Source: an uncultured virus (IMG/VR IMGVR_UViG_3300023110_001575)
Lineage: Duplodnaviria > Heunggongvirae > Uroviricota > Caudoviricetes
Reading direction: 5' to 3' (one strand)
IMG/VR virus record: IMGVR_UViG_3300023110_001575
Span: 1-64,000 of that record
DNA: 64,000 nt
Positions 3,901 to 59,719 of the stretch are shown here, piece after piece (position 1 is the stretch's first letter; every line of letters begins with the position of its first letter). Below the pieces are notes generated by a model. The model saw nothing but the letters and a program-made list of their open reading frames with translations. It was not told the DNA's origin and ran no database searches. Position numbers and translations under genes: made by a program.

Positions 3901-4086
3901 GACTTTGTCAGTGCCATCTTTTTGTGCTTTATTATAATTTTCTTGTATACGTGTTGCTGTATCAGGGCCGCCACCGCCACCACGTCTTTCAGTTGCTGCT
4001 AATAAAGCCTGTAAGGTGGCTTCACTTGCTACGCCGTCTCTTGGACGGGGGCCGCCTACATTACTAATTTCTACATCTTCTGCCAA
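967..4086 (-). CDS. Tail tape measure protein
   Basis: 1039 aa, Ala/Gln/Thr-rich and helical-looking, with periodic Trp/Phe repeats. The C-terminal FATGTNGFRDFGRGTHAILHGNEAVVP motif is typical of tape-measure C-termini. Adjacent to the gp26-like gene. TTG start. Confidence 0.8.
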   Translation of the reverse strand: MAEDVEISNVGGPRPRDGVASEATLQALLAATERRGGGGGPDTATRIQENYNKAQKDGTDKVSKLGKAAEAAGKGLKGFAKELAFGGTRASDFAEAIFGSTNVVTRLTRYLDHTVDQFRSLASVGASFENSIFEMMKISAEASMSLDDFAQMVRDNAANLAFFGGTVTNGAKLLGTFSQEFRTGLGRQFFAMGFTIEDVNEGLIDFLSNERMRQSQALRFDGQTQASAANYILQLDRLAKLTGEERRQLADRMAQQMTEARIRNQLNRLNENERNNLRGALTFFDTRLPGFSDGFQDLMDGVAQTDLGKALVQAMPGIETYMQRVFTGEEELSDVISTLQNRFGPTLERFSQQYGPAQLTSMQNSSNGVVAALASVADYAYQFNSIRGIDAGLSEEEQGRRNRLTSALGNFEQAITDVRKSVVRAFFEIVDGTDGRGGLLEVFGEFGDALKNFFSPGAAGGLSTVTNTVKDFLNAIFGPQGFVTRGLRRFNDFLNSGEARDALGYLQEKLVEFANYLESIFTDQDGKLTIIEGLKTLLRDTFANIMDFAFGELQQGPNGEQSRSGGMFDSIKQSIAGFFSGTEFGKAITDSITNAFNTVDTHLSKILGMPQGTTVSDWLTTQLTAIQNAFNGPDGVLSKVTTLYDDIKVFVTTQVTAIENAFNGPDGILSKITTLYNDIKGFIGTSGQTSLTQWFDNTLATISNMIDTVTTTMNSTVNYFRDALGFGQGQTLREWFDSTWTSISNTMNAINNTIITVMDTIADTFGFAPGGQTFQEWMNTTLTDLQTKMQTFINTQINAVRDLLGMEATEDFASYIDRLIQEMTISIEAGMMQILKSLGQYAKSFIPGAKMTDTQRDDAMTRFMSGEQLDKNELQSLIQTIRAEQVQRSIDNGSVISGNFAKFLNLVTDPVSDALNLDALMTDPDALRQSIMALYPNSPSFPEFATGTNGFRDFGRGTHAILHGNEAVVPRNTEAGQLLDAFYERQGSSTDQTQLIQKIDQLNNNMKMAVHLLSEGLSVEKGIARNTKGSTNLYRSLGR
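2046..2231 (-). repeat. Tandem 96-bp (32-aa) duplication inside tape measure gene
   Basis: Two near-identical copies offset by 96 nt (cctttatatcg at 2046 and 2142), encoding TTQLTAIQNAFNGPDGVLSKVTTLYDDIKVFV and TTQVTAIENAFNGPDGILSKITTLYNDIKGFI. Confidence 0.92.
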
Positions 4087-4141
4087 TGAATCATTCCAAA
4101 TTAACTGCGCACATTATATTAATTCATATATATACGTGTAG

Positions 4142-4147
4142 TATTTA
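4142..4147 (-). promoter_or_regulatory. Putative T4-type late promoter core (TAAATA) for the tape measure-portal operon
   Basis: TATTTA on + (TAAATA on -) about 55 nt upstream of the tape measure start. The same motif precedes many structural genes. Confidence 0.5.
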
Positions 4148-4163
4148 TCCGGAGAAAAAATAC

Positions 4164-5021
4164 ATGCAGACAGCAACAGCAAACCCGCTGTCTAAACATT
4201 TTAGACAGCCTAAATTATATATCAAATTACCTAGTGGTGGAAATTTTTATCGTCCTGGTAGTCTTGTGCCTGAGCAAACGGGTGAATACCCTGTGTATGC
4301 TATGACAGCAAAGGATGAACTTATGTTCAAAACTCCTGATGCTTTGTTAAACGGCCAAAGCACAGTAAACGTAATTCAAAGTTGTATGCCCAATATCAAA
4401 GATGGTTGGTCAATACCTAGCATCGACATTGATGCTATATTAATTGCAATTAGAATCGCAACCTATGGCGAAGTAATGGAACTAGGTGTTAACATCAAAG
4501 AAATAGATGAAGAAAGATCATTTGAACTTGATTTGCGCACAGTTCTTGATGGACTAATTGCAAGACAGTATGATAATGTTTTTCAAATCGGCGACTTTAC
4601 TTTTGAAATTGCGCCGATGGTGTACAAAAAGTTTACAGAAATTGCTTTAAAAACATTTGAAGAACAACGTTTGTTTAGAATTGTTAACGACGATAACATG
4701 AGCGAAACAGATAAAATTACTCAGTTTAATGAAGCATTTGTTAGAGTTACCGAACTTAACATTAGTAATATTCTAAACAGTATTATGTCAATACAGTTTC
4801 AGGATGAAGAACCTGTTACTAACAGAGATCATATTATAGAATTTTTTGAAAACGCCGACAAAGACATTTACACTTCTCTTATAGTTCATTTAGATGAACA
4901 AAGAGAAAAGTTTGCAATACCGCCATTCAAGGCACGTCTAAGTCCAGCGGATATCGAAAGAGGAGCACCAGAAACTATTGATGTTCCGATTACTTTCGAT
5001 CAATCAAATTTTTTCGCCTAA
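4164..5021 (+). CDS. gp26: Baseplate hub assembly protein / tail assembly chaperone, T4 gp26-like
   Basis: NPLSKHFRQPKLYIKLPSGG...YAMTAKDELMFK...D.DAILIAIRIATYGE...NFF pattern typical of gp26-like proteins. Start moved to ATG 4164, which has a GGAGA RBS upstream. 285 aa. Confidence 0.75.
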   Translation: MQTATANPLSKHFRQPKLYIKLPSGGNFYRPGSLVPEQTGEYPVYAMTAKDELMFKTPDALLNGQSTVNVIQSCMPNIKDGWSIPSIDIDAILIAIRIATYGEVMELGVNIKEIDEERSFELDLRTVLDGLIARQYDNVFQIGDFTFEIAPMVYKKFTEIALKTFEEQRLFRIVNDDNMSETDKITQFNEAFVRVTELNISNILNSIMSIQFQDEEPVTNRDHIIEFFENADKDIYTSLIVHLDEQREKFAIPPFKARLSPADIERGAPETIDVPITFDQSNFFA

Positions 5022-5071
5022 GGATCTCAGCTCTGTCCTTAGAGGACATTCTTAAACAAGTTGAGATCCTT
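5009..5071 (+). promoter_or_regulatory. Putative -1 programmed ribosomal frameshift signal (T_TTT_TTC slippery heptamer plus 3' stem-loop)
   Basis: In-frame T TTT TTC at 5009-5015, two codons before the stop. Stem AAGGATCTCAGCT (5020-5032) pairs with AGTTGAGATCCTT (5059-5071), with an inner TGTCCT/AGGACA hairpin. The -1 frame is open for 76 codons. Confidence 0.75.
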
Positions 5072-5245
5072 GACAACGAATCAAAACAAATAAAATATGA
5101 TCTCTACAAATTGTCTTGGTACATGCGTGGAGGTGTTTCGGTGTCAGAACTTTACGAGATGAGTGTTGAGGACAGAGAAATCCTAGCAGGTATAGTAAAA
5201 GAAAATTTAGAAACTAGTAAAAAGACAGGACAGCCGTTTTGGTAA
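5015..5245 (+). CDS. gp51-like baseplate hub assembly segment, probably translated as a -1 frameshift extension of the gp26-like gene
   Basis: Open -1 frame: RLRISALSLEDILKQVEILDNESKQIKYDLYKLSWYMRGGVSVSELYEMSVEDREILAGIVKENLETSKKTGQPFW*. It has no good start of its own (first ATG at 5123 gives 40 aa). The S.SE...M..EDRE pattern resembles gp51-type proteins. Confidence 0.7.
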   Translation, partial: RLRISALSLEDILKQVEILDNESKQIKYDLYKLSWYMRGGVSVSELYEMSVEDREILAGIVKENLETSKKTGQPFW

Positions 5246-5764
5246 TTAAGAAGGCTGTGAAACTTTGTAGCCTTTTTTCTTAAGCATTGCAATTGCTGTT
5301 TTTTCTTCAGGTGAAATTCTTGATGTTGCCCACTGTGGTGTAGCATCCGGTGATGCAAACTTACTACGTTTCTTAGGATCACCAGCACCAGATCTTTGAA
5401 AGCCTTGCTGTGTTACTTTCTTTAAAATCTCATCTACTTCAGGATTGCTTAGTGGTTCATTTTCATCTCTACCACCTGCTTCTCTTGACTTACCTAAAAT
5501 CATATCAACATCAGTAGTAGGTAAACCTTTTTGTCTTAGAAAACCCTTGAGTTGATCAGGTTCTAGTTTTCCTTTTTTAATGCCACTACCTGCCATCCAT
5601 ACACTTAGATCTTTTTTGGTTTGGTTTGCATCTTTGCCTACATCAAGTTTTGCTTTTGCAGTTTTACTGCCTAATTTACTCATAGCACCAAGTCCTGCTC
5701 TTTTTAGCAATCCCATTGGTTTTTCACTTACGTTATCTTCACTAATAATCTCAAATACTTTCAT
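5246..5764 (-). CDS. Lys-rich hypothetical protein, possible internal head protein
   Basis: 172 aa, basic. N-terminal MKVFEIISE resembles leaders cleaved by T4-type prohead protease (I/L-x-E). AAGGA RBS and a TATAAATA upstream. Confidence 0.55.
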   Translation of the reverse strand: MKVFEIISEDNVSEKPMGLLKRAGLGAMSKLGSKTAKAKLDVGKDANQTKKDLSVWMAGSGIKKGKLEPDQLKGFLRQKGLPTTDVDMILGKSREAGGRDENEPLSNPEVDEILKKVTQQGFQRSGAGDPKKRSKFASPDATPQWATSRISPEEKTAIAMLKKKGYKVSQPS

Positions 5765-5793
5765 AAGACAATCCTTTTTGATGTTGTTATATT

Positions 5794-5801
5794 TATTTAT
5801 A
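5794..5801 (-). promoter_or_regulatory. T4-type late promoter TATAAATA
   Basis: Perfect TATAAATA on the minus strand 30 nt upstream of the ATG at 5764. Confidence 0.7.
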
Positions 5802-5813
5802 TGAATTATTTAG

Positions 5814-5886
5814 TATTGCTACTACGTAGCAATAAGTTTTCGCTATCGCTCAAACTATATTTGTTTTTTTATTAGTGCGAAGCACT
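5814..5886. other. Cluster of three short inverted repeats / GNA-type mini-hairpins
   Basis: TATTGCTAC-TAC-GTAGCAATA (5814-5834), AGTTT-TCGCTATCGCTC-AAACT (5835-5856) and AGTGC-GAA-GCACT (5874-5886). Confidence 0.75.
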
Positions 5887-5910
5887 TAGTTTCATGTAGA
5901 TTAATTAGTC

Positions 5911-6160
5911 AGACGGAACCTTGCAGCGGTTCCATCCTCCTCGAGCTTCATGTGAGTTGCATAGCCGAGACTTGGAAGTAGGTATTTGACTTTGCTACTG
6001 GGCTCTAACCTTTCCCAACCTACGTCGACATCACGCAAAATGCGCTATCCCCCGCTTCGTTCCTAGTGCTAAGGGGTTTTCGTAGCATACAGCCTGTGGG
6101 ACTTCACCAGTGTCTGATCACGTGGTTACGTGAAGCTCAAGGTGGATCGAACAATTCCGA
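5911..6160 (-). ncRNA. Putative structured non-coding RNA of unknown family, directly 3' of the GIY-YIG gene
   Basis: ORF-free and visibly GC-richer than its surroundings. It has a 15-position closing stem (6142-6128 with 5953-5939), internal stems GTAGGT/ACCTAC, TGGG/CCCA and CCCC/GGGG, and a 3' hairpin at 5911-5937 whose mismatches become G-U pairs only on the minus strand. Confidence 0.6.
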
Positions 6161-6595
6161 TCAAACAGTGTCCTGATGTGCCTTTAAATTTTCTCTAAGT
6201 ATTTTTGAACCACCAACTCGAACGTTTATAATACCATTATAGTATTCATCTGTTTCTAAAACTCTACGTTCAAATTGTTCTCGTGCCTCTAAATATGACA
6301 TTTCGCCTCTAGATTTACAAAAATAAAGTATTTCTCTTGTAAACTTGTTTTCGCCTAATTTTTCTACGTCTGCTATTAGTTTATCTGACGATCCCCAATA
6401 GTCTCGCCAATCTGATTCCTTGTAGCCTCGTCTTTTATTTTTTTTGCCTTTAAGCGGTGGTTTGGTTGTTTTAAACTTTGCTAGTTTTTTGCCTACGTAT
6501 TTGCGATTGTCCGTTAAATTAGTAATAAGGTAAACAAACCCTTCGTACTCGTTTGGTATTTCTGTTACTTCTTTACCTTGATATATCCAATTCAT
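6161..6595 (-). CDS. GIY-YIG family endonuclease (EndoII/Seg-like, single domain)
   Basis: GFVYLITN...RKYVGKK motif, YWGSS, F.REIL, YLEAREQF (catalytic Glu candidate) and YYNGII. 144 aa. Confidence 0.85.
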   Translation of the reverse strand: MNWIYQGKEVTEIPNEYEGFVYLITNLTDNRKYVGKKLAKFKTTKPPLKGKKNKRRGYKESDWRDYWGSSDKLIADVEKLGENKFTREILYFCKSRGEMSYLEAREQFERRVLETDEYYNGIINVRVGGSKILRENLKAHQDTV

Positions 6596-6613
6596 ACAGT
6601 AATTTATGTGTGC

Positions 6614-6841
6614 CTATGTGCTTTCTTCTCTTGTTTTGGATAGAGGATGTTTTTTTAGTGCCTGTTGGTGTATTTCTTGTATTTCTAAACGTCTTACCTT
6701 TGCTAGTTTCATAATTTGACTTAAATGTTTGCGAACTACTCGTCTTTTTGCCTCAGATGGCCTTTGTAAAAATATTTCATTGGCTTTAAAGTAAGCCAAA
6801 TACTCTTTTACCAATTGATCATGTACATCGTCTTCAATCAT
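6614..6841 (-). CDS. Hypothetical small helical protein
   Basis: 75-aa ORF whose start overlaps the gp46 stop (ATGA). No recognisable motif. Confidence 0.7.
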   Translation of the reverse strand: MIEDDVHDQLVKEYLAYFKANEIFLQRPSEAKRRVVRKHLSQIMKLAKVRRLEIQEIHQQALKKHPLSKTREEST

Positions 6842-8613
6842 TCTACCACTTCAATGTCGTTTTCGTATGAAGTAAAGCCATTTTCCTTTACAACCTTTAG
6901 AATATTGTTTACTCTGCCTACTAGTTCGTCTTTATGACTAATCAAATAGATGTTTTTCTGTCTTTCTCTGCCCATCTTCTTTAGTACACTCAAAGAATTC
7001 TCGACACCCTGACTGTCCATACCACTATCAATAAGTTCGTCAATGAATAATAGGTTCAGTCCTTGGTACAATGACTCCCAAACATCACGGAATGCAAAAC
7101 TCATACCAAGTATTAGCCTATTGCGTTCACCTCTTGACAAGTTATCAAAGTCTAAGTCTTGGCCAAGTTGTGTTATTTCAACGGCTAAGTCGTTTTGGAA
7201 TGTAACTTGATGAGGTAAGCCTAACTTATCGAGATAATTCGTAAGCCTGTTGTTTAGATATGCAAGATTTTGATCAATAATCTTCTTTCTTATGAAAGAA
7301 TCTTTGTTTGTTAGTAGTTTTAACAAAAACTCTTGGTGTTCTTTGAAAGTATTCAGTTGATTTATAACTGACCAATCGATATCTTGCAGTGCTGTGTTAG
7401 TTAAATCGTCAATTTGTGCCTGATAAGGGTCTTCTTCTTGCTCTTTACTTAGCAATGTATTCTTTAAGTTATCTACGTTGTTTCTATGTTCATATGCTTC
7501 ACGCATTGTATCATAAAATGTAGTAGGACGACCGTCAATATCACCAATTATACCCAATTCAACAGCGTTATCATCAAATTTATTTTTTATTTCAATGAAA
7601 TATGCTCTGGCATCGGCTAGATCTTTAGTTTTAGTTGCAAGAATCTCTGCTTTCTTAGTTTCATGTAGTTCTTGACCACATGTATAACAAATAGCATCGT
7701 CTAATTCTGCAATGTCTTTAGTAACCTTTTTTACAGACTTGTCTGCACGTTGTAGTGCAGGCTCTAACGTGCTTAATTCTTTTCTAAGAGCCGTTATTTT
7801 GTTGTTTAGTTCTTGCCAATTCTGTAATTGTTCGTGATTTTCAAGTTCTTTTTCAATATCTACTTGTTCTAGTTCTTTAATACCGTTTTTTAACTTTTCA
7901 ATGTCTGTTTTTTGCTTTGTTTTCCATGCAGACTGTCTAGTTCTTAGTGTATTAATACTTTGAGAGATTTTTTCATTAGAAGATTGTATTGCATTAATCT
8001 TTAATTGTTCTTCTGTAATGCTATCTTTGGTATATTTGATTTGTTCTTTAAGATTATCTGCCTTTTCTGATAAAATAGTAATACCTAGCAGTTGCTCAAT
8101 GACTTCACGTTGATCATTTTGTCGCATACTTAGGAAAGGCTCGGTGTATGTGTTCAATGCAACCACGTGCTTGAACATATTGTGACTCATTTCAAGTAAA
8201 CCATTAATAGAGTCTTGTGTTTTACGGCTATCGCCTTGCGATTCGTCAGTTAAATCTTGTTGTTCGTGGTCGTTTACATAAAATTTTAGTACATTAGGCG
8301 ATCTTCCACGTTCAATTCGATAACTGTTTCCACCTTTTTCAAAGTTTAGTGTAACCAACATGCCCTTACTATTGGTTTTGTTAATCAAGTTATTACGCTT
8401 GATGTTTGTTAGTGCTTGGCCGTACAAGGCATAGGACAATGCATTGATTATCGTAGTTTTACCTGTACCGTTGCGTGATCCTGAATCATCACCTCCTTGG
8501 TCTAAGTTTTCACCAAGCACTAGAGTTAACTGTTCACGGTCAAAGTCAACAGCTTGGGTAACATTACCCACACTCATAAAGTTTTTTACGGTTAAATCTT
8601 TAAATTTTATCAT
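6838..8613 (-). CDS. gp46: Recombination endonuclease ATPase subunit (Rad50/SbcC-like)
   Basis: Walker A SRNGTGKTT, coiled coil with CYTC zinc hook, LSRGE signature, Walker B LLFIDE and H-loop LISHK. Confidence 0.95.
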   Translation of the reverse strand: MIKFKDLTVKNFMSVGNVTQAVDFDREQLTLVLGENLDQGGDDSGSRNGTGKTTIINALSYALYGQALTNIKRNNLINKTNSKGMLVTLNFEKGGNSYRIERGRSPNVLKFYVNDHEQQDLTDESQGDSRKTQDSINGLLEMSHNMFKHVVALNTYTEPFLSMRQNDQREVIEQLLGITILSEKADNLKEQIKYTKDSITEEQLKINAIQSSNEKISQSINTLRTRQSAWKTKQKTDIEKLKNGIKELEQVDIEKELENHEQLQNWQELNNKITALRKELSTLEPALQRADKSVKKVTKDIAELDDAICYTCGQELHETKKAEILATKTKDLADARAYFIEIKNKFDDNAVELGIIGDIDGRPTTFYDTMREAYEHRNNVDNLKNTLLSKEQEEDPYQAQIDDLTNTALQDIDWSVINQLNTFKEHQEFLLKLLTNKDSFIRKKIIDQNLAYLNNRLTNYLDKLGLPHQVTFQNDLAVEITQLGQDLDFDNLSRGERNRLILGMSFAFRDVWESLYQGLNLLFIDELIDSGMDSQGVENSLSVLKKMGRERQKNIYLISHKDELVGRVNNILKVVKENGFTSYENDIEVVE

Positions 8614-9623
8614 TATAACTCTTTGTAAATGTCCAACAGCATCTTTTTATTGAAAGATTCAGAGTCAATTGCAAGAATTTCGTTGCTAACAATCTGATCC
8701 ACACTCTCAAACTGTGCAATATCAAGTTCTGTTGTAATTTCTTCAATTTGTTTTTGTGGTATTAGTGTAATTTCTCTACATTTGTACTGATCTATAAATG
8801 TTTCTTTAATAAAACTTGCTTCTTCGTATGAAATAGGAAGGTCAAGTGTTACCCTCAAGTACATATTAGGTTTGATCAGTGTGTCTTTTTCGTCAATCAA
8901 CTGAGATAACTTAACTGTACGAAACTTTGGACAGTCTAGCCAGTTGATATACTCTGGTTCTGCATCGTTCTCACGGTCCAGTATCATCATACCACGGTCA
9001 TCATCCCAAGTATCTGCATAGTTGTGTGGGAAAGCATTACCTATGTAGTGGATCTTGCCCTGCCGTTGACGTTTGTGGAAGTGTCCGCTGAACACATACT
9101 CTTGATTCTTGAAGTGTTGTGACTTTAGTTCACCGTGATCTGGCATCTGCACCATAGCATTCATATAGAAACTAGGTAATTCAAAGTGTCCAAACAAATA
9201 TTTGGCTTGTATCTTCTCTATACGGCGCCATTCATCGCCTACTAACCAAGGAACTAGTGCTACATCTTCTACAACTTGTATTTCGTTAACAACTGTTATA
9301 CCTGGAATGTGTTTTGCCCATTCGGTGCTTTTAACATCACGTTTATCTTTGTAATACAAATCGTGATTGCCTGCAAACATATAAAAGTTTTCAAATGCTG
9401 CACCTAGTTTTTCTAAACTACGAATACCTGCATCCATAGTTGTTAAATTAAGACTATTTCTGTTATGATTCCAGTCACCGCAGAAAATACCAGTCTCGCA
9501 ACCGTTTTCTTTTGCTGTTTCGATGTACCAGTCTATGAAGTTTTCACAATCTTGGTTATGTACTCGTGAATTACCCTTCATACCAAAGTGTATGTCAGTA
9601 AACACTGCTGCTTTTTTAAACAA
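8613..9623 (-). CDS. gp47: Recombination endonuclease nuclease subunit (Mre11/SbcD-like)
   Basis: Metallophosphoesterase motifs TDIHFG, GDW, GNHD, GHFE and SGHFH. Coupled to gp46. TTG start with GGAG RBS. Confidence 0.95.
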   Translation of the reverse strand: MFKKAAVFTDIHFGMKGNSRVHNQDCENFIDWYIETAKENGCETGIFCGDWNHNRNSLNLTTMDAGIRSLEKLGAAFENFYMFAGNHDLYYKDKRDVKSTEWAKHIPGITVVNEIQVVEDVALVPWLVGDEWRRIEKIQAKYLFGHFELPSFYMNAMVQMPDHGELKSQHFKNQEYVFSGHFHKRQRQGKIHYIGNAFPHNYADTWDDDRGMMILDRENDAEPEYINWLDCPKFRTVKLSQLIDEKDTLIKPNMYLRVTLDLPISYEEASFIKETFIDQYKCREITLIPQKQIEEITTELDIAQFESVDQIVSNEILAIDSESFNKKMLLDIYKEL

Positions 9624-22000: not shown

Positions 22001-22513
22001 ATAAGTGATGAAATAATTTACCATCCTGTTAAGTACAAAGTGCTATTTGGAGATAAAGCAGATATAGATTTACAAGCAGCAATTAAAGTTGTAAAATCTA
22101 AAGAACGTGTAATAAATGATAATGAATTAAAAGTTCGTATTGTGCAAGCAATGAATGAATTTTTTGCATTAGACAATTGGGACTTTGGCGAAACATTTTA
22201 TTGGAGTGAATTAAGTGCATATATTATGAAGCAATTAGCACCTGATATAAACAGTATTGTAGTTGTTCCAAGACTTGCAAGTAGTTCATATGGAAGTTTA
22301 CAAGAAATTAAATGTGATTCAGATGAAATATTAATAAGTGGTGCAACTGTTTCTGATATAGAAATAATTGAGGCACTAACTTCAGAAAGACTTAAAGCGT
22401 CTGGTACAGTAGTTACTCAAAGCGAATTTGTAGGAAGCGGAATACAAAGTGCAGAAGAAACTACAACAGATAATTTTATAATTGGTTCTACAGATAATAC
22501 CGGAGGCTATTAA
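19046..22513 (+). CDS. gp6: Baseplate wedge subunit
   Basis: YDFDTLRRTMISYLR...FNDY.ESS...LARLLSY, F.DGVFG..P and QNRMVTGEDY gp6/baseplate-J-like motifs. Follows gp25. ATG 19046 after AAGGA, with TAAATA at 19013. Confidence 0.85.
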   Translation: MSSIDRQNRLLLAEDWTKIYQSFNNAEFKSYDFDTLRRTMISYLRKNYPEDFNDYIESSEYLAIIDMIAFLGQNLSYRTDLNARENYLELAERRESVLRLARLLSYNVTRNQAANGFLKITAVQTSENVIDSNGNSLSGRSILWNDNVNNDWFEHFVKILNAANNVSNQFGRPVNNQVIDGIPTEQYTFETNNGGIPIYAFNRDVNGEGLDFEVVSTIIDNGELKEATPKPAEPLSYIYRDNGRGPGASSTGFFMHFRQGRLQRGDFGVDFPVPNQKIDIDTTNINNSDVWLFGLDSSSRETTEWTKIDAVEGNNIVYNSISKNIKNVFSVLSRADDRISLIFSDGVFGNLPTGTFRVYYRTSANSDVVILPTNIKDVQVTIPYISSTGRTETLVLTLSLQETISNSASSESTDSIRNNASSTYYTQNRMVTGEDYNVGPLGVSQDIIKVKSLNRIASGISRNYDILDATGKYSSTNLFATDGILYKEYIDEVTSFDFTTRSDILQTVLNKITPLLQSKNIRNFYLENYNRQDYRELGLVWHEETIDTNRTTGMFEDSNLIRYTVGSFTEGPLRFIEPGAMVKFTAPSGYHFMTNDDNKLMLGDATHRYSTSYIWTKCISVTNGGNTVDETTGLGGVVFNDAIPDGAVLDSTIPKLSTQLIVDIQGQMVDQIFSYNTFGLRYDRESRSWKVITQDNLNITGNFSLGQAGDVSNSRIDSSWLFLFETDGETYTVTYRTLRYIFESDSELRFYFDNNKKIFDSKSGKIIRDRVSVLNINNDVNSSTGTESYTLDYDWEISSVYRDQDGYIDSTRVEVAFFDSDDDGVIDNPDLFTEIVDSTNYIFLKAKQQNNTTVYNYVSAESENINVVGFSTDINLLTPNNPKYYVSATDEFYILDSVNRTLSPSYDYKAFIGRDSISFRYVHASDENSRIDPSSTNVIDVYLMTRAYDTAFRQYLRNIVTTKPLPLSSDQMARYYGGEIEKVKSISDEIIYHPVKYKVLFGDKADIDLQAAIKVVKSKERVINDNELKVRIVQAMNEFFALDNWDFGETFYWSELSAYIMKQLAPDINSIVVVPRLASSSYGSLQEIKCDSDEILISGATVSDIEIIEALTSERLKASGTVVTQSEFVGSGIQSAEETTTDNFIIGSTDNTGGY

Positions 22514-25500
22514 TGGCATACGATAAAGAACAAAACGAAAGTGGTTTGCCTACTGATAACAACGAAAATCCAAAAGCAATTGATTTTCTGCCAAAATATT
22601 TTAGAACAGATGTAAACAAAAAGTTACTATCTAGCACCATACAGCAAATGATCAATCCAGGTGCTGTTGAAAAAATTAATGCTTTTGCAGGTAGACGTAA
22701 TTCTAAAGTAAACCAAGTCAGTGATGTTTATCTTCCTGATGTAACTCCTGACAGAGAAAATTATCAATTTGAACCTAGTATTGTATACAAAGACGAATTA
22801 GATAATGTTTTGTTTTATAAAAACTATCCTGATTTTATCGGACAAATTAAAAACTTTAAAGGCCCTACAGAAAATCATAATAGTTTAAACTCGCAAGAAA
22901 TGTATTCTTGGAATCCACATATTGATTGGGATAAGTTTGCTAATTTCCGTGAATACTATTGGTTACCTTTAGGTCCTTTGCCTATTCCTGTATTTGGTGA
23001 ACAAAAAGAAATTGAAAGCACTATTGTTGTGTCAACAGTAGTTGACGACGATAATACTGCATTCTTGTTTAGTTCGAGGGGAGCAACAAGAAATCCTACA
23101 CTAAGATTGTTTAAAGGACAAACTTATGTTTTTGAAATTAACACTCCTGGGCATCCATTTACTATTGGAATTACAAGAGATTTTACTGATACAGATCTAG
23201 GATTTAGTGTAGAGCAAGAAATTAGTAGTGAAATTTATGACAAGGATATGTTAAAATATGTTTATGACGAAGAAGGTAGACTTGTTTTAACAGAAGATGA
23301 TTATATTGAGGAAGGGGTAATAAAATGGACTATACCTGACGATGTTCCAGACAGTCTTTATTACCTTAGCCAAAACGATATAAACACAAGTGGTATTATT
23401 TTAAGTTTTGCTATAGAAGAAAACACAGAAATCGATCTTGCTGAAAATGTTATTGGTAAGAAAACCTATAAAACAGGCACAGGCGTACAACTTTCAAATG
23501 GCATGAAAGTTTATTTCCAAGGTACTGTTACACCACAAGAATACAGTGAAGGTTTTTTTTACATTGAAGGTGTAGGCACAAGCATTAAATTAATTCCAGA
23601 AAATGATTTAGAAGTTCCTAGTATCTTTACAAGTGATGTAGAAATTGCATGGGATGAATATGGATTTGACGAAGTACCGTACGAAGACGCTGCAAGTTTT
23701 CCAGGTACAAAAGATTATATTACAGTTAATAGATCAAGTCATGACAGAAACCCTTGGTCACGTTATAATAGATGGTTCCATAAGGATGTAATTGAAAAAA
23801 GTTATGAAGTTAACAATACTGAAATAAATCTAGATCAAAACTTTAGAGCAAAAAGACCGATCATTGAATTTAACGCAGGACTTAAATTATTCAACCATGG
23901 TACATTTGCAAAGAAAAATGTTAATTTAGTTGATAATTTTACAAAAGATGCTTTTAGTAATGTAGAAGGAAGTCTTGGATACAACATAGACGGTGTAGAT
24001 CTAACTGACGGAATGCGTGTATTATTTACAGCAGACCCTGACAGTTTTGTAAATGGTAAAATTTACGAAGTTAATTTTATTACACATAACAGCCGTAGGC
24101 AAATTAGTCTTGTTGAAACTACTGACACTATGCCTTTAGAAAATGAAACTGTACTTGCGTTAGAAGGTGAATCGCTAGGCGGCAAGATGTTTTGGTACAA
24201 TGGTACACAGTGGATTCAGTCACAAGAAAAAACAGGTGTAAACCAAGCACCACTTTTTGACGTTTTTGATCATGACGGAACAATTTTAAACGATGAAATA
24301 ACATATCCTGCGTCAGACTTTATTGGTAATAAAATTTTTAGTTATAAAGAAGGCACCGGATCTGATGATACAGAATTAGGATTTCCTCTAAAGTATAGAA
24401 ATATTTCTAATATAGGAGATATTGTATTTTCGTTTGATTTACAAAACCAAACAGTAAGATATCAAAACGAATTGCGCGAAACACTTACAACACAAACTGA
24501 TACAGGATTTTTGAAAAAGTTTTCCGATATTAGCACATTTGATTATGTAAACGGATGGACAAAAACAAATATATTAAGCAGACAGGCAGTAATACAACAG
24601 CAACTTACAGTTGATGATGAAGTTAATAATTTTCCAATTACTGTTTTTAACAAAAGCGGTACTCTAAGTGATTTAGTTGTTAAAGCTTATGTTGATGGTA
24701 AAAAAGTTTTAGATTCTAAATTTACTATAGACAATATAAACAATATAGCAACTGTAATTTTTCAAGAAGATTTAGAAGTTGGAAAAACACTTGTGTTTAG
24801 ATGTTTTTCTAACACTCCAAAAAATGAAAATGGTTACTATGAAATACCTGTAAACTTAGAAAAAAATCCATTAAATGATAACTTAGTTGACTTTACGTTA
24901 GGTGAAGTAAATGATCATGTAGAATCTATTATTGAAGAAGTACAAGGCTTTGACGGCATTTATCCTGGCGTTAGTAATCTTAGAGATTTAGGAAATGTTA
25001 CACATTATGGTAAGCGTTTTGTACAACACAGCGGACCATTTAATTTAGCAGCATTCCATATTACTGATAAAGAAGCAAATATTGTTAAAGCAATTAATTT
25101 TGTTAGATCAGAATACGGTAAAACAAAACGAAGACTAATTGCACTTGCTAATGAAAGCGGTATAGAAGGAACTGCAAAAGATCAATTAGATGCAGTGCTT
25201 GAAAGATTTTCTAAAGAAACTGTTTCATATAGAAATTTCTATTATGGTGACATGGTTGGTAAGAAAGCAAATACAAGCACAACACACAATATAGATAACA
25301 GTGAAGAAACATATTTTGCTATTGGTCTTACAAATTTTGATATAAACAAGTTGTCTAATCAAGCAGTATATGTTTATCTTAACGGAGTTCAACTTCTAAA
25401 AGATAGAGATTATACAATAAGCGATAACTTTGTTAATATAACAGCAACACTTGCAAAAGGCGATGTTGTAAGAGTTGATGAATTTGAAAATACAAATGGA

Positions 25501-28500
25501 TGTTATATTCCGCCAACACCTACTAAATTAGGTTTGTTTCCTTTATATTATCCTGAAATTCAAAAAGATCATACAGTAAGACCTGCTGTAAAAACATTTG
25601 TTACACCTAGAGCCCAAACACGCTTTGTACTAGAAAATGTTAACAAAATTATCGAAGCAACTGATCTTATTGTACAAGTAGGTGATGTCAAAGCATATGC
25701 TAATGTTGATTATAATATAGAAAAAGTAAGAAATGGTTTATTTTATGTAGACTTTGTAGAACCAGTTGCAGCCAATGAAAATGTAATCATAGGATTTCCG
25801 CAAGTAGTTATTCAAGGACATGATGGAAGTTTAACAAAAGCATGGAATGATTTTAGAGATGACTTTTTGCTAGAGTATGAATATAGAGTATATAATAATA
25901 TTAAATTAAAATATGATGCTAGTGTTTTAGATGTAAACAATTTTATTCCTACATTTGACAGAGATACTAAATTTACCAAAGAACAAATTGATAACAGTAT
26001 ACTTGGAGATTTTACAAGTTGGTTAGAAGATGCAGGAAATTTAACTTATACTGAAAATAACTTTTATGATGCAAGAGACGGATTTACATACAACTATAGT
26101 TTTATGTCAAATACAGACGGCGAGCCCTTAAAAGGATTTTGGAGAAGTGTGTATAAAACATATTATGGCACTGATCGTCCTAATACTCATCCATGGGAAA
26201 TGGTAGGATTAACAATTAAGCCTACATGGTGGGATGAACAATACGGACTTGCTCCTTACACAAGTGATAATATTTTACTTTGGACAGACATGGCAGAAGG
26301 TATTGTAAGAACACCTGGCACTGTTCCACAAAAAAATAAAATGTACAAGCACTCAAAATTACTTAATGCTATTCCGGTAGATAGCAACGGTAAGTTAGTT
26401 GATCCGTATAATGCAGGACTTGCACAAAACTATAAATTTGACACAGCAAGTAATAACTTTGTGTTTGGCGACGAAGCACCTGTCGAGACTGCATGGAGAA
26501 GAAGTTCAGAGTTTCCGTTTGCATTATTAAAGGCATGGATGTTAAATCAATCTGCACAAATTTTTGGTCTAGCTTTTGATAGATCACGCATAAAAAAGAA
26601 TTTATCAAATCAATACGTCTATACTGAAACAAACAAAGCAATACGTTGTGAAGATTTAGTATTCCCTAGTATTACAAGTGACGAAGATATTACTCTTACA
26701 AGTGGACTTGTAAACTTTGTTGCGAGTTACATGTCTTCCAAGTATAGTTCAAATTATAATAATTATAAGCAAAGACTAAAAGGATTAAAAAATCAACTGT
26801 CAATTAGAGTTGGCGGGTTTGCAAGTAAAGAAAAATTAAAATTAGTTTTAGATGCAAGAAGTCCTCTAAACAAAAGTAGTAATTTTGTACCAGAAGAAAA
26901 TTATCAAATTTTCTTAAACACATCAAGTCCGTTGGAAACGTTTGTCTTCAGTGGCATGATAATTGAAAAAACAGCAGATAACACATATATCTTAAAAGGC
27001 TACGATGGCGATAATCCTACGTTTCCTTTTTACAGACCATTAGAAACAAATTCAGATACATCGATTACTGTAGGCGGCATTTCTGCAGATTATGTTGTAT
27101 GGACTGAAGATCAACAATATACAATTGGTACAATTGTTGAGTATCAAAATAACTGGTATAGAACAACAACTACTCACAAGAGTGCTGAAACATTTGACGC
27201 AACAAAATTTGCTAAGTTGCCTACACTTCCAGTTACTGGTGGCATTAGTGCAAAAATTAGAAAAAGATATGAAACTACCGTTTCGTATATTTCTTATGGC
27301 ACAATTTTAGAATCAGTGCAAGAAGTTGTTGACTTTATGCAAGGATATGAAAAGTTTTTAAAACAGCAAGGATTCAGACTAGACTATTACAATAGAGAAA
27401 CAGATAGTTTAGAAGACATGACTTTATGCATACAAGAGTTTATGTTCTGGGTAACACAAAACTGGGAAGCAGGGACAATCCTTACAACTAGTCCGTGTGC
27501 AAATAGGTGTATCTTTACTGCTCCGTATTATGTTGTAGATGATATATTTGATGATTTTTACGGTTATAACCTGTTGTCGGGAAATGGTGAAAAACTAGGC
27601 AGAGATCTAAGCAACATTTATAGAGATGATACAAATACATTTGGTATTACACCTTCAAACACAAATGAAGGAATTTATTTAATTAAACTACCGCTTGTGC
27701 AAACAGAGCATGTTATTTTGTTAGATAACGCAACAGTTTTCAACGATGTAATTTACGATGTAGCGCCGGGCTACAGACAGGAAAGAATCAAACTTGTAGG
27801 TTATAGAACAGACAATTGGGAAGGTGGCTTAAACATTCCTGGATTCTTCTATGACAATGTGAAAGTTGATTTTTGGAAAACTTATGAAGATTATGCAGTA
27901 GGCGATGTTGTTAAATTTAAAGAATTCTTTTATTCGGCAAATGTAAAACACAACAGTGGAGAAGTTTTTGTTTCTGCAAACTGGAATAGATTATCAGAAG
28001 AACCTAAAGCAGAACTATATCCTAACTTTGATTACAGAGTAAATCAGTTTACTGATTTTTATGATTTAGATACTGACAATTTTGACACAGAACAACAGCG
28101 TTTAGGACAACATTTAATCGGTTATCAAAAACGTGAATACCTAAGTAATATTATTCCTGACAGTGTAAGTCAATATAAGTTCTACCAGGGATTTATACAA
28201 GAAAAAGGAACAAAAAATTCTCTTACAAAATTGTTTGATGCACTAAGCACATCGGGCGAAGAAAGTCTAAAGTTTTTTGAAGAATGGGCAATTAGAGTCG
28301 GATCTTATGGTGCATTAGATAATAAGCAAGATTTAGAGTTTAAATTAAACGAAAGTAACTATAAACTAGAACCTCAATTATTTGAATTAACAAACAACAA
28401 AACAGATGATGCAGATTTAATTTATAAAATTGCTGATTATGAAGTATATGAAAAACCCGAGGACTATGCCAATGCGCCGTTTGTAATGTCTACTGCAAAA

Positions 28501-47869: not shown

Positions 47870-48797
47870 AATACTAGACTATGACATTATCTATCTTAGT
47901 TATGACGAACCTAATGCTGAAAAAAACTATGCAGATTTGTGTAGGAAAATTCCTTGGGCTAAACGTGTACACGGTGTAGACGGAAGTGATGCAGCACACA
48001 AAGCATGTGCAGAACTTTCAGAGACGGATAGATTTATTACTATCGATGGCGATAATATTATTGATTCTGAGTTTCTTACAAAAGAATATGATTTAGAAAC
48101 ACACGAAGACATGCACTGGAATCGTGATATAAAGTTTGAAGACTGTGTAGTAAGTTGGAGTGCTAGAAATACAATTAACGGACTAATGTACGGTAACGGC
48201 GGTATTAAATGCTGGCCTAAAGATAAAGTGTTAAACATGCGTACACACGAAAATGCAGATCCTAATAATGCACATGCTCAAGTTGATTTTTGTTGGGACT
48301 TAGAATATATTCAAATGAATGCGTGTTATAGCGAAATTATGAATAATGCTACTCCGCAGCAAGCATGGCGTGCTGGATTTAGAGAAGGTGTCAAAATGGC
48401 ACTTGACAGAGGTATGAAACCTACTTTGAATGATTTTAAACGTAATCATTGGAAGAACTTGCATCGTTTGTATATTTGGCTAATGATAGGCGCTGATGTA
48501 GAAAATGGTAAATGGGCTATTTACGGCGCAAGAGAAGGTCTTTATAAAACAATGTGTACGGATTGGGACTTTGTAAATGTTCGTGATTTTAAATGGTTAA
48601 ATGAATATTGGGCAAATGAAGTTGAATCTAAAGTATCTTTAGAAGGACTTGAAGATTCAATTGAGGAATATGGTATTAAACTAATTAACGAACTCGATTT
48701 ACCTATTGCTGAAGAATGCTTAACTGCACAACAAAGTAATTTTTTCAAAACAGTATATCAAAATCCGGGTAGAACTGCTGGACAACAATTTATATGA
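47856..48797 (+). CDS. Putative glycosyltransferase-like (GT-A) protein
   Basis: DIIYLSYDEPNAE...RVHGVDGSDAAHKACA...FITIDGDN (DxD-like), YGNGGIKCW and AWRAGFREGVKM. Confidence 0.55.
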   Translation: MSKFKILDYDIIYLSYDEPNAEKNYADLCRKIPWAKRVHGVDGSDAAHKACAELSETDRFITIDGDNIIDSEFLTKEYDLETHEDMHWNRDIKFEDCVVSWSARNTINGLMYGNGGIKCWPKDKVLNMRTHENADPNNAHAQVDFCWDLEYIQMNACYSEIMNNATPQQAWRAGFREGVKMALDRGMKPTLNDFKRNHWKNLHRLYIWLMIGADVENGKWAIYGAREGLYKTMCTDWDFVNVRDFKWLNEYWANEVESKVSLEGLEDSIEEYGIKLINELDLPIAEECLTAQQSNFFKTVYQNPGRTAGQQFI

Positions 48798-59712: not shown

Positions 59713-59719
59713 ATATTGC

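What the first reader, a model, noticed from the sequence alone, without database searches (positions are those of the whole stretch)
5911..6595. Minimal GIY-YIG nuclease followed immediately by a ~250-nt structured, possibly pseudoknotted non-coding RNA
Seen: the genome is almost gap-free, yet about 400 bp with no ORF follow the GIY-YIG stop (6161) on the same strand, much of it GC-richer. Read on the minus strand it folds into a 15-position closing helix (CCUUGAGCUUCACGU 6142-6128 with ACAUGAAGCUCGAGG 5953-5939). This encloses CCCC/GGGG, GUAGGU/ACCUAC and UGGG/CCCA stems and is followed by a 3' hairpin (5937-5911) whose G-U pairs work only on this strand. UGCUAC (6087-6082) can pair with GUAGCA (5998-5993), which lies inside another stem's loop, giving a pseudoknot. 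Known: nucleases with an adjoining structured RNA (IscB/TnpB omega RNA, HEARO) are RNA-guided. This 144-aa protein shows no C-terminal DNA-recognition domain of the kind Seg or I-TevI homing enzymes carry, but has a very basic insert (KTTKPPLKGKKNKRRG). Inference: a candidate undescribed nuclease-RNA ribonucleoprotein, a ribozyme, or a replication-primer RNA. I cannot assign it to a known RNA family.
Basis: partly seen in the sequence, partly recalled or inferred. Interest (0 to 1): 0.85.

Follow-up and report, generated by a model that had tools for sequence, protein, structure and literature searches.

The report
New structured RNA beside phage nuclease
Just after a small nuclease gene, these uncultured ocean and marsh giant phages encode a large, intricately folded RNA that matches no catalogued RNA family and carries two short repeats that always mutate together, which points to an RNA machine of a kind not yet described.

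Summary
Window 6163-5891 (minus strand) encodes a ~270-nt structured RNA directly 3' of a SegE-type GIY-YIG gene. Near-identical to diverged copies sit at the same place in at least 120 viral contigs. In 84 dereplicated copies the pseudoknot helix UGCUAC/GUAGCA, the CCCC/GGGG helix and a variable hairpin covary strongly. G.U pairs outnumber A.C 248 to 14, so the RNA is read in the nuclease's sense. Rfam 15 gives no match.

Three things are new here:
- The invariant strand GUAGGUUG can pair either with ACCUAC or with the RNA's own 3' tail CAAUCU-AC.
- Two 7-nt direct repeats, 54-68 nt apart, are identical in 141 of 143 loci although the heptamer changed at least 15 times.

A second RNA class with the same 5' and 3' modules replaces the core in 51 contigs.

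The nuclease is fixed in this phage clade. A 72%-identical homolog in phage Melnitz lacks the RNA, so an RNA-guided nuclease is not supported.

Best reading: a new autonomous RNA family, possibly self-processing, beside a Seg-like endonuclease, much as SegB sits beside T4 tRNA genes. Its function is unproven.

The parts
6161..6595 (-). 144-aa SegE-type GIY-YIG nuclease gene (stop codon 6163-6161). It is a fixed neighbour of the RNA.
   Evidence: Pfam PF19835, E 1.3e-34, profile 1-123/123. PHROG 447. AF2 pLDDT 81.9. Best fold match is the I-TevI catalytic domain 1LN0, prob 0.96, E 0.26. The motif residues Y22, Y33, E103 and N120 are invariant in 15 homologs. Which residue matches which I-TevI catalytic residue is recalled, not aligned to a structure.
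5891..6163 (-). Class-1 structured RNA as a whole, from the stop-codon hairpin to the end of repeat R2.
   Evidence: Conserved in 62 of 80 GIY loci and in at least 120 viral contigs. Covariation. No Rfam match.
6145..6162 (-). Hairpin overlapping the GIY stop codon (GAUCGG-loop-UCGAUC).
   Evidence: In the MFE fold. The stem changes GAUCGAG/CUCGAUC to GAUCUAG/CUAGAUC in relatives.
6105..6144 (-). Short-type 5' domain: helix CACC 6144-6141 / GGUG 6108-6105 enclosing UUGAG and a small hairpin. Most relatives carry a larger four-helix domain here instead.
   Evidence: CACC/GGUG changes to CGCU/AGCG in relatives. Helices H1-H4 of the long type are supported by mutual information.
6128..6142 (-). 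Window-specific and an alternative to P8.
   Evidence: -25.2 kcal/mol in the window, weak or absent in most relatives.
6082..6094 (-). P3 5' strands: P3b GGCU 6094-6091 and P3a UGCUAC 6087-6082.
   Evidence: P3a 6 of 6 pairs covary. The two-segment duplex forms in all 68 representatives tested. Top mutual-information pairs.
5988..5998 (-). P3 3' strands: GUAGCA 5998-5993 and AGUC 5991-5988 (pseudoknot partner of 6094-6082).
6049..6081 (-). A-rich junction GAAAA (6081-6077), P4 (6076-6072 / 6053-6049), inner pairs, and the invariant loop UAGGAACGAAG.
   Evidence: P4/P5 6 of 7 pairs covary; GGAACGA is invariant.
6033..6045 (-). P6 hairpin (GCGC/GCGU). In relatives it grows by up to about 80 nt.
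   Evidence: 3 of 3 base pairs covary. 28 distinct lengths, spread evenly over the three classes modulo 3.
6016..6031 (-). Invariant junction AUGUCGAC plus the guide-like strand GUAGGUUG (6023-6016).
   Evidence: Invariant in 84 sequences. It pairs either with ACCUAC 5983-5978 or with the tail 5903-5896.
5999..6017 (-). Hairpin UGGG-AAAGGUUAGAG-CCCA. Its loop can pair through GGUUA 6010-6006 with UGACU 5911-5907, and through GAG 6005-6003 with CUC 5956-5954.
   Evidence: Stem and loop are invariant. Only G.C to G.U changes occur in the loop-tail pairs.
5978..5983 (-). ACCUAC, the P7 3' strand, followed by invariant UUCC.
   Evidence: Paired in 84 of 84 sequences; 7 show G.U at one position.
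5939..5970 (-). Local hairpin P8 (UCUCG 5970-5966 / CGAGG 5943-5939) whose loop holds ACUC (5957-5954) and repeat R1.
   Evidence: The local partner is a recurrent best duplex partner in the long type. Register differences in MAFFT leave it at 68.5% paired.
5947..5953 (-). Repeat R1, ACAUGAA.
   Evidence: Identical to R2 in 141 of 143 loci and in 83 of 84 rows, with at least 16 changes on the tree.
5912..5936 (-). P9 hairpin GAUGGAACC-GCUGCAA-GGUUCCGUC.
   Evidence: 9 pairs, 98.8% paired, many G.U pairs.
5891..5911 (-). 3' tail: UGACU (5911-5907), linker, AAUCU (5902-5898), and repeat R2 ACAUGAA (5897-5891).
   Evidence: Invariant UGACU and AUCU. The tail pairs with 6023-6016. R2 co-variation.
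5874..5886 (-). Small hairpin AGUGC-UUC-GCACU after R2. In some relatives a hairpin plus a U-run sits here.
   Evidence: Sequence. Loci L250 and L290. Not scored as a terminator in the window.

Best explanation
WHAT IT IS (shown). It is a gene for a previously uncatalogued structured RNA. The RNA is about 270 nt in the window and 230-400 nt in relatives. It is read in the same direction as the GIY-YIG gene and begins at that gene's stop codon. It lies at the 3' end of the gp47-gp46-orf75-GIY gene string of an uncultured clade of large T4-like phages.

The core is a double-pseudoknot fold. A long-range helix P3 crosses P7, with P4/P5 and a length-variable P6 in between. An invariant hairpin loop can clamp the 3' tail.

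The nuclease next to it belongs to the Seg-type GIY-YIG homing-endonuclease family. In this clade it is a fixed neighbour, in the way SegB sits among T4 tRNA genes. Nothing indicates that the RNA guides it.

HOW IT WORKS (inferred). The RNA is a self-contained device that toggles between two folds. The invariant strand GUAGGUUG pairs either with ACCUAC inside the core or with the RNA's own tail CAAUCU-AC. The hairpin loop holds UGACU and CUC. This arrangement would bring two equivalent sites, ACUC-R1 and AAUCU-R2, to the same core. The two 7-nt sites are kept identical by selection.

I think the most likely purpose is site-specific self-processing: 3'-end trimming, or excision or circularisation of the 55-68-nt P9 module. 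I put about 0.3 on catalysis by the RNA itself, and about 0.95 on it being a functional structured RNA.
For: Conservation and linkage:
- Of the 80 closest GIY loci, 62 carry class 1, 7 carry class 2 and 11 are too short.
- A 25-nt core pattern is found in at least 120 viral contigs. GIY lies upstream in 89 of 89 loci that can be tested, even where GIY is only 49-56% identical.
- GIY is present in 77 of 80 gp46 loci. The other 3 end within 284 nt of gp46.

Structure:
- Covariation statistics and per-helix counts are; mutual-information pairs; the P3 duplex forms in 68 of 68 representatives.
- G.U 248 against A.C 14.
- Non-coding: P6 lengths are evenly spread modulo 3, and 72 of 170 ungapped columns are invariant.
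- No Rfam family and no tRNA or tmRNA.

Switch:
- GUAGGU pairs with ACCUAC in 84 of 84 sequences.
- RNAalifold instead pairs GUAGGUUG with CAAUCUAC (8 pairs), GGUCA with UGACU, and GAG with CUC.
- The only changes seen at R positions 1-2 (A to G, C to U) keep pairing with U and G of the guide strand by wobble.

Repeats:
- R1 = R2 in 141 of 143 loci, with 9 shared variants, at a spacing of 54-68 nt.
- On a tree built without the repeat columns, R1 changed at least 16 times and R2 at least 15 times, yet 83 of 84 rows are identical. 14 of 15 independent contrasts go the same way and none goes the opposite way.
- Class 2 has the same layout with other heptamers. Of 51 loci, 41 are identical, 5 differ at one base and 5 were not parsed.

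Transcription: metatranscriptome contigs cover the region, including one 1554-nt contig with no differences across 5600-6237.

Neighbour precedent:
- SegB lies in the T4 tRNA cluster and cleaves tRNA genes (PMC2330249, abstract in the search listing).
Against: - No experiment and no raw-read data show a discrete RNA, its ends, cleavage or circles. The RNA-library contigs could derive from contaminating DNA and show no joint.
- P7, the invariant hairpin, the loop-tail pairs and the guide-tail helix never vary on both sides. Neither fold of the proposed switch is proven by covariation.
- No partner complementary to the heptamers exists within 1.5 kb. No third copy exists beyond chance in the 126-kb record. 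I cannot say why the repeats must be identical.
- Most large structured RNAs found by comparative genomics have not turned out to be ribozymes (recalled).
- Perfect linkage to GIY inside the clade leaves a functional tie to the nuclease possible.
- The tree used to count changes is built from a short, possibly recombining alignment.
Confidence: 0.55

Rival explanations
1. A non-catalytic, trans-acting stable RNA. It could be a protein sponge or scaffold, an anti-defence decoy, or a mimic of a host RNA. It would be inherited together with, and perhaps spread or amplified by, the neighbouring Seg-like endonuclease. The repeats would be two binding or processing sites for a protein.
For: Invariant single-stranded loops and junctions (GGAACGAAG, AUGUCGAC, AAAGGUCAGAG, UUCC) fit protein or tertiary contacts. 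SegB-type endonucleases amplify adjacent RNA or anti-defence genes (PMC13096335, abstract and passages). Two interchangeable cores with shared end modules look like alleles under an arms race.
Against: A protein site would not need the two heptamers to be identical while remaining free to vary. No homolog was found in bacterial genomes that it could mimic: 9 pattern hits, of which 3 are phage-like contigs inside MAGs and 6 are chance.
Confidence: 0.25
2. One reading: the RNA is the guide or scaffold of the domain-less GIY-YIG nuclease (an RNA-guided or RNA-assembled nuclease). One heptamer in the RNA would recognise the identical heptamer in DNA through the complementary strand.
For: Linkage is perfect: 89 of 89 and 48 of 48 loci. 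The nuclease lacks any DNA-binding domain. Identical RNA and DNA heptamers are what RNA-DNA recognition of a nearby site would demand.
Against: - The Melnitz homolog, at 72% identity, has no such RNA and sits at another locus.
- GIY proteins beside class-1 and class-2 RNAs are equally close to the window's protein, at 76-84% identity, so the protein does not track the RNA core.
- Some relatives carry an extra small ORF between GIY and the RNA.
- A 7-nt guide is very short.
- No free variable guide segment exists.
Confidence: 0.1
3. A degenerate or unusual group I intron, or a lariat-capping-type derivative, that carries the GIY-YIG gene as its homing endonuclease and splices out of a transcript.
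For: The helix order P3-(A-rich junction)-P4/P5-P6-P7 with a P3/P7 pseudoknot, and a hairpin between P7 and P3' as in subgroup IA (recalled). A guide-like strand pairs with a pyrimidine-rich site that ends next to the repeat. Phage group I introns often carry GIY-YIG genes (recalled).
Against: - No match to Rfam group I or lariat-capping models even at E<=10.
- No P8 between P3' and P7'.
- No interrupted host gene. The flanking 75-aa ORF and the downstream ORFs are complete and variable.
- The nucleotide before R2 is U, not G.
- No skipped form appears in RNA-library contigs, and one contig runs straight through.
- No empty (element-free) site among 80 gp46 loci.
Confidence: 0.05
4. A DNA-level element (replication origin, recombination or packaging site) or a decayed protein-coding remnant, rather than an RNA.
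For: A GC-rich island. Direct repeats of the length of a recombinase overlap region. A palindromic GTCGAC in the invariant core.
Against: Strand-specific G.U pairing, 248 against 14 A.C. Compensatory changes in three helices. 208 of 208 loci hold exactly one P9 module, so no deletion or duplication between the repeats is seen. No conserved frame.
Confidence: 0.03

Closest known systems
T4 SegB (a GIY-YIG free-standing homing endonuclease) with its neighbouring tRNA genes
   Same: A small Seg-family GIY-YIG gene lies directly beside structured-RNA genes in a T4-type phage. According to PMC13096335 (abstract and passages read), the endonuclease is often kept ('domesticated') in myoviruses.
   Different: The RNA here is not a tRNA (ARAGORN finds none). 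The nuclease has no C-terminal DNA-binding domain and is present in every locus examined. Cleavage of the RNA gene by this nuclease is untested.
Group I intron core, including subgroup IA phage introns and the lariat-capping (GIR1) ribozyme
   Same: The helix order and the P3/P7 pseudoknot. An A-rich junction before P4. An internal strand able to dock a pyrimidine-rich substrate-like segment. Association with a GIY-YIG gene.
   Different: No Rfam match, no P8, no P1/P2 next to a splice site, no exons, no terminal G, and no spliced form seen. The nuclease gene lies upstream of the whole core.
IscB/TnpB omega-RNAs (HEARO) and other nuclease-adjacent guide RNAs
   Same: A structured RNA is encoded next to a small nuclease gene, and part of the RNA (the heptamer) is identical to nearby DNA.
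   Different: Different nuclease fold (GIY-YIG, not RuvC/HNH). No Rfam HEARO or omega-RNA match. No long variable guide. A close homolog of the nuclease exists without the RNA.
Large orphan structured RNAs of phages and metagenomes (GOLLD, ROOL, IMES RNAs; recalled from the literature)
   Same: Found by comparative analysis. Several hundred nucleotides long, with pseudoknots and invariant loops. Phage-borne. Function unknown.
   Different: No sequence or structure match to any of them in Rfam 15. Unique features are the two co-varying heptamers and the two interchangeable cores with common end modules.
Phage T4 gene 60 bypass element with mobA (recalled; not read here)
   Same: A T4-type phage, a homing-endonuclease gene next to an odd RNA element, and matched short sequences about 50 nt apart around a hairpin.
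   Different: No reading frame runs through the element. The spacing is not constrained modulo 3: 66, 40 and 35 loci fall in the three classes, my tally of the spacings.

Membership tests
Group I intron (Rfam RF00028) | Match to the family covariance model | tested here: not met
   No hit at E<=10 in window 5700-6300. No hit at E<=1 in 12 related loci or at E<=5 in 5 more.
Group I intron (Rfam RF00028) | P3/P7 pseudoknot with P4-P6 between the P3 and P7 5' strands | tested here: met
   P3a, P4/P5 and P6 covary. P7 is paired in 84 of 84 sequences but invariant.
Group I intron (Rfam RF00028) | P8 hairpin between P3' and P7' | tested here: not met
   Only 4-12 unpaired, A-rich nucleotides lie between P3' and ACCUAC in all 84 sequences.
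Group I intron (Rfam RF00028) | Interrupts a gene; spliced exons are observed; the intron ends in G | tested here: not met
   Flanking ORFs are complete. No element-free allele in 80 gp46 loci. No joint across the element, and a continuous 1554-nt RNA-library contig. U precedes R2. Contigs cannot exclude rare spliced forms.
Lariat-capping ribozyme (GIR1) | Rfam model match, and a position upstream of the endonuclease ORF whose mRNA it caps | tested here: not met
   No Rfam hit. The RNA lies downstream of the GIY ORF.
HEARO / IscB-TnpB omega-RNA | Rfam model match, an adjacent RuvC/HNH nuclease, and a variable guide at one end | tested here: not met
   No Rfam hit. The nuclease is GIY-YIG. Variable parts are helix strands.
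tRNA / tmRNA | Cloverleaf or tRNA-like domain found by ARAGORN | tested here: not met
   0 genes in the window and 0 in the 126-kb record.
SegE-type GIY-YIG domain (Pfam PF19835) | Full-length match above the gathering score | tested here: met
   119.5 bits against a cut-off of 25; residues 3-123 on profile 1-123/123.
SegE-type GIY-YIG domain (Pfam PF19835) | GIY-YIG fold and conserved catalytic motif residues | tested here: met
   FVY (20-22), Y-[IV]-G (33-35), E103 and N120 are invariant in 15 homologs. The best fold match is the I-TevI catalytic domain, weakly (prob 0.96, E 0.26). The assignment of roles to residues is recalled.
Free-standing homing endonuclease (Seg/Mob type) | Sporadic presence among close relatives, at different loci | tested here: inconclusive
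   Present in all testable loci of this clade: 77 of 80, with the remaining 3 truncated. This argues against active homing. A 72%-identical copy sits after nrdB in phage Melnitz, which argues for past mobility.
Free-standing homing endonuclease (Seg/Mob type) | C-terminal DNA-binding domain and site-specific DNA cleavage | tested here: not met
   Only about 20 residues follow the catalytic domain. Cleavage is not testable with these tools. Only proteins of 79-252 aa were searched, so longer fused forms were not looked for.
Riboswitch | Known aptamer class upstream of a consistently regulated gene | tested here: not met
   No Rfam riboswitch match. The downstream ORFs differ among relatives and have their own TATAAATA late-type promoter.

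The most novel reading that the evidence does not exclude
The element is a new class of self-processing ribozyme. The invariant strand GUAGGUUG acts as an internal guide that docks the RNA's own 3' tail (CAAUCU-AC). A loop clamps UGACU and CUC. The core then cuts or transesterifies at two equivalent sites, ACUC-R1 and AAUCU-R2. This would release or circularise the 55-68-nt P9 module and recreate the same junction sequence. That would explain why the two heptamers must stay identical while being free to drift. The two RNA classes would be alternative catalytic cores on one substrate module.
Probability: 0.2. Interest if true: 0.92.

Novelty: categorically new. Interest (0 to 1): 0.8.

Why it matters
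If the reading holds, a widespread group of uncultured large T4-like phages carries a complex RNA of a family nobody has catalogued. The nuclease family has thousands of protein clusters in ocean, estuary, marsh and freshwater data. The RNA is found in hundreds of contigs.

The covariation support is as strong as for accepted Rfam families. The RNA has two pseudoknots and a built-in alternative pairing. Its most unusual feature is a pair of direct repeats that change together, and I know no precedent for that among structured RNAs.

Such features mark RNAs that do chemistry or undergo programmed rearrangement. The element is therefore a concrete, testable candidate for a new ribozyme or RNA-switch class. 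It can be made by in vitro transcription from the sequence alone.

It also extends the SegB-tRNA theme, in which GIY-YIG endonucleases settle next to, and may propagate, phage RNA genes.

The work tempers the more exciting claim of an RNA-guided GIY-YIG nuclease. That claim has no support beyond adjacency.

Tried and rejected
Searches that found nothing:
- blastn of the RNA against 50,697 cultured-phage records: no match.
- Rfam at permissive thresholds on the window part, on 12 class-1 loci and on 5 further loci including 3 class-2 loci: only chance-level hits to unrelated families.
- Bacterial-genome scan for a host homolog of the core: 9 hits, about the number I estimate by chance. Only 3 are real, and those are phage-like contigs binned into MAGs.
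- Two full-text searches for a described GIY-YIG-associated RNA, and a look into one 2026 preprint on noncoding families: nothing relevant.
- Earlier-findings look-ups: nothing on this element.

Tests of the heptamer repeats:
- A cis partner complementary to the heptamers, within -1000 to +500 nt and allowing two G.U pairs: none at a consistent place.
- Extra heptamer copies in the loci or in the 126-kb record: only chance ones inside coding regions.
- The heptamer as a genome-wide motif: no.
- Co-variation of the heptamer with the GIY start region: none.
- Translation-based readings (mini-ORF, stop-start overlap, ribosomal hop): rejected. No conserved frame exists, and the repeat spacing falls in all three classes modulo 3 (66, 40 and 35 loci, my tally).

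Other structural ideas:
- Pairing of the tail with AGAUUG in the long-type 5' domain: 6/6 in 60 of 93 sequences, but without covariation (shuffles give the same count). The region covaries instead as its own hairpin.
- My first all-against-all pair screen was too permissive to use.
- RNase P-like and tmRNA-like resemblances that I noticed by eye were recalled-motif matches only. Rfam and ARAGORN do not back them.

Read evidence:
- Metatranscriptome contigs gave no RNA ends, no strand and no joint. One contig ends at 5937, but an end of a short contig is not evidence.

Protein:
- The PDB sequence search for the nuclease found nothing at E<=1.
Full report
**Setting.**
The window is the first 64 kb of a 126-kb viral record estimated at 35% complete. 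Around the finding, the minus strand carries:
- an SbcD-like gene (8613-9623, Metallophos);
- an SbcC/gp46-like gene (6838-8613);
- a 75-aa ORF;
- the 144-aa GIY-YIG ORF (6161-6595);
- a 396-nt gap;
- a 172-aa ORF (5246-5764) preceded by TATAAATA at 5801-5794.

Baseplate and tail genes follow on the plus strand. Related contigs reach 256 kb in the viral collection, so this is an uncultured clade of large T4-like phages.

**The nuclease.**
- The ORF matches Pfam SegE_GIY-YIG over the whole profile (E 1.3e-34). The 'basic insert' therefore belongs to the family.
- At least 8000 protein clusters are related. All 120 listed are unnamed or called 'hypothetical protein'.
- The motif residues are invariant in 15 homologs down to 50% identity.
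- An AlphaFold model (pLDDT 81.9) is closest to the I-TevI catalytic domain, though weakly (prob 0.96, E 0.26). A sequence search of the PDB found nothing.
- There is no DNA-binding domain.

**Is the RNA real?**
- The gap is a GC island (47-51% against about 33%).
- The single sequence folds only modestly better than shuffles (z = -2.1 on the minus strand, -1.3 on the plus strand).
- Comparative data decide the matter. Of the 80 closest GIY loci in IMG/VR, 62 hold the same element right after the gene. Another 11 are cut too short. The remaining 7 hold a different RNA, class 2.
In all 89 with enough upstream DNA, GIY lies upstream by 131-577 nt, even when the protein is only 49-56% identical. 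The RNA core is thus better conserved than the protein.
- In 80 loci found through gp46, 77 have GIY. The other 3 end within 284 nt of gp46.
- No cultured phage in INPHARED has the RNA.
- A scan of one genome per prokaryote species found only 3 true copies, on phage-like contigs inside MAGs, plus 6 chance hits.
- Rfam 15 gave nothing. ARAGORN gave nothing.

**Structure.**
On 84 copies dereplicated at 93% (A2), my hand-drawn structure gives:
- 93.1% paired cells, against 85.1% in shuffles (0 of 500) and 32-41% when slid;
- 20 pairs with changes on both sides.

Per helix:
A second segment, P3b, extends it. The two-part duplex forms in all 68 representatives tested, and its pairs top an independent mutual-information ranking.
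- P7 (GUAGGU/ACCUAC), the hairpin UGGG...CCCA, and a possible loop-tail pairing GGUCA/UGACU are invariant or change only between G.C and G.U.
- P9, the 3' hairpin, is full of G.U pairs.

Other counts:
- Overall G.U = 248 against A.C = 14, so the RNA is the GIY-sense strand.
- P6 has 28 different lengths, spread evenly modulo 3. Of 170 ungapped columns, 72 are invariant. It is not coding.

The helix order P3, A-rich junction, P4/P5, P6, P7, hairpin, P3', P7' gives the group I type of pseudoknot. But there is no P8, no exon context and no model match.

**The 5' domain and the closing helix.**
- Most relatives have a larger four-helix 5' domain that starts at, or overlaps, the GIY stop codon.
- The window has a short form.
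It is weak or absent elsewhere.
- It excludes a local hairpin (P8) that recurs in relatives with compensatory changes.

**Two new features.**

First, a second fold. RNAalifold on A2 pairs:
- the invariant GUAGGUUG with the tail CAAUCU-AC (8 pairs);
- GGUCA with UGACU;
- GAG with the CUC before the first repeat.

GUAGGU therefore has two invariant partners, ACCUAC and AUCUAC, and a third look-alike, ACUCAC. That is the signature of a built-in switch, or of a guide strand docking a substrate-like tail. No covariation can yet choose between the folds.

Second, two co-varying direct repeats.
- A heptamer follows ACUC (R1, 5953-5947), and the same heptamer follows AAUCU (R2, 5897-5891), 54-68 nt downstream.
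- They are identical in 141 of 143 distinct loci, across nine variants.
- On a tree built without these columns, R1 changed at least 16 times and R2 at least 15 times, yet 83 of 84 rows are identical. 14 of 15 independent contrasts go the same way.
- Position 4 is always U, position 6 is always A, and position 1 is always a purine.
- No complementary partner exists nearby.
- There are no further copies, no link to the GIY start site, and no reading frame.
- No deletion or duplication variant occurs among 208 loci.

I cannot explain the need for identity. Ideas that fit are two equivalent processing or ligation sites, or a template-switch or realignment step.

**Class 2.**
Fifty-one contigs carry another core at the same place, and all 48 testable ones lie after GIY. 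Class 2 shares with class 1:
- the short 5' domain;
- the 3' module GGCUG-N-ACUC-R1...hairpin...UGACU-N4-CAAUCU-R2;
- a hairpin loop containing GGUCA.

Its heptamers are GAAUAAU or GAAUGAU.

**Expression.**
- Salt-marsh, aquatic and freshwater RNA libraries hold the region or relatives of it.
- Laid contigs include a 1554-nt piece identical to 5600-6237. They show no joint across the element.
- Contigs cannot show ends, strand or level, and DNA carry-over is possible.
- No sigma-70-like promoter on the RNA strand lies between GIY and the RNA. I take the RNA to be co-transcribed with GIY (inference).

**Relation to the nuclease.**
- Adjacency is perfect, but the whole neighbourhood is syntenic.
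- The Melnitz homolog (72% identity over 135 aa) lies after nrdB. It is followed by 148 nt with a late-type promoter and no such RNA.
- GIY proteins next to class 1 and class 2 are equally similar to the window's protein.
- Some relatives have an extra small ORF between GIY and the RNA.

This fits a Seg-type endonuclease that settled beside a conserved RNA gene. SegB did the same in the T4 tRNA cluster (PMC2330249, abstract in listing). SegB homologs do so widely (PMC13096335, abstract and passages). It does not fit an obligate ribonucleoprotein.

**Verdict.**
Function remains unproven.

Noticed in passing
L050:3426-3900, L073:3435-3880, L264:3707-4160; 51 loci L292-L342: A second RNA class sits at the same position after GIY. 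Its core is different (for example GGGGG-AUACAGGUCAACCG-CCUCC). It shares the 5' domain, the ACUC-R1 / AAUCU-R2 layout and a GGUCA loop complementary to the tail UGACU. RNAalifold did not resolve its structure.
   Followed up: partly
window 5856-5835 (minus strand): A conserved hairpin between the RNA and the late-type promoter. The stem AGUUU/AAACU changes to GUGUU/AACAC in class-2 loci. The 12-nt loop GAGCGAUAGCGA is nearly invariant. A second, variable hairpin follows at 5834-5814. It may be a protein-binding or termination element.
   Followed up: no
L008, L028, L100, L152, L222 (about 250-300 nt between GIY and the RNA); L093, L119, L135: Some relatives carry an extra small ORF between GIY and the RNA. 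One type has a motif like G-x-W-P-T-G-K-H-x-G-x-K-L...Y-L-x-W. Another has a C-x-x-C pair. They might be detached DNA-binding modules of the nuclease.
   Followed up: no
L274:4837-5160: One contig has the RNA with its centre removed (P6, P7 5' strand, the invariant hairpin and P3' are missing), while the 5' domain and the 3' module are intact. This is either a natural deletion allele or an assembly artefact.
   Followed up: no
long-type loci, e.g. L085:1190-1240, L149:1265-1310: In the majority type, the last roughly 10 codons of GIY (...KAKHSNT) overlap the start of the RNA's 5' domain (..CAACACAUAAGGUUGGCGGG). The same sequence persists as non-coding DNA where an ORF is inserted. The RNA probably begins inside the GIY reading frame.
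   Followed up: partly
window 6596-6610 and the same place in relatives: A conserved motif (GGTAAGTA, ATAAGTA, ATACATAA or ATAAATTA) lies 5-8 nt before the GIY start codon in nearly all loci. Its role as a ribosome-binding site or promoter element is unknown.
   Followed up: no
window 22513-36930 (+): A single ORF of about 4800 codons in the tail and baseplate region. It was not scanned against any library here.
   Followed up: no
window 48794-62995 (+): A cluster of two radical-SAM genes (one with a B12-binding domain), an epimerase, a UDP-glucose dehydrogenase-like gene, an aminotransferase and a 2OG-Fe(II) oxygenase. It looks like a sugar or nucleotide-modification cassette in a phage.
   Followed up: no
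window 4086-5245 (+): Earlier notes of this scan on look-alike stretches in other genomes propose a -1 frameshift joining a gp26-like and a gp51-like baseplate-hub ORF. The window has a T4_baseplate ORF at 4086-5021 followed by a short ORF at 5111-5245. This was not examined here.
   Followed up: no
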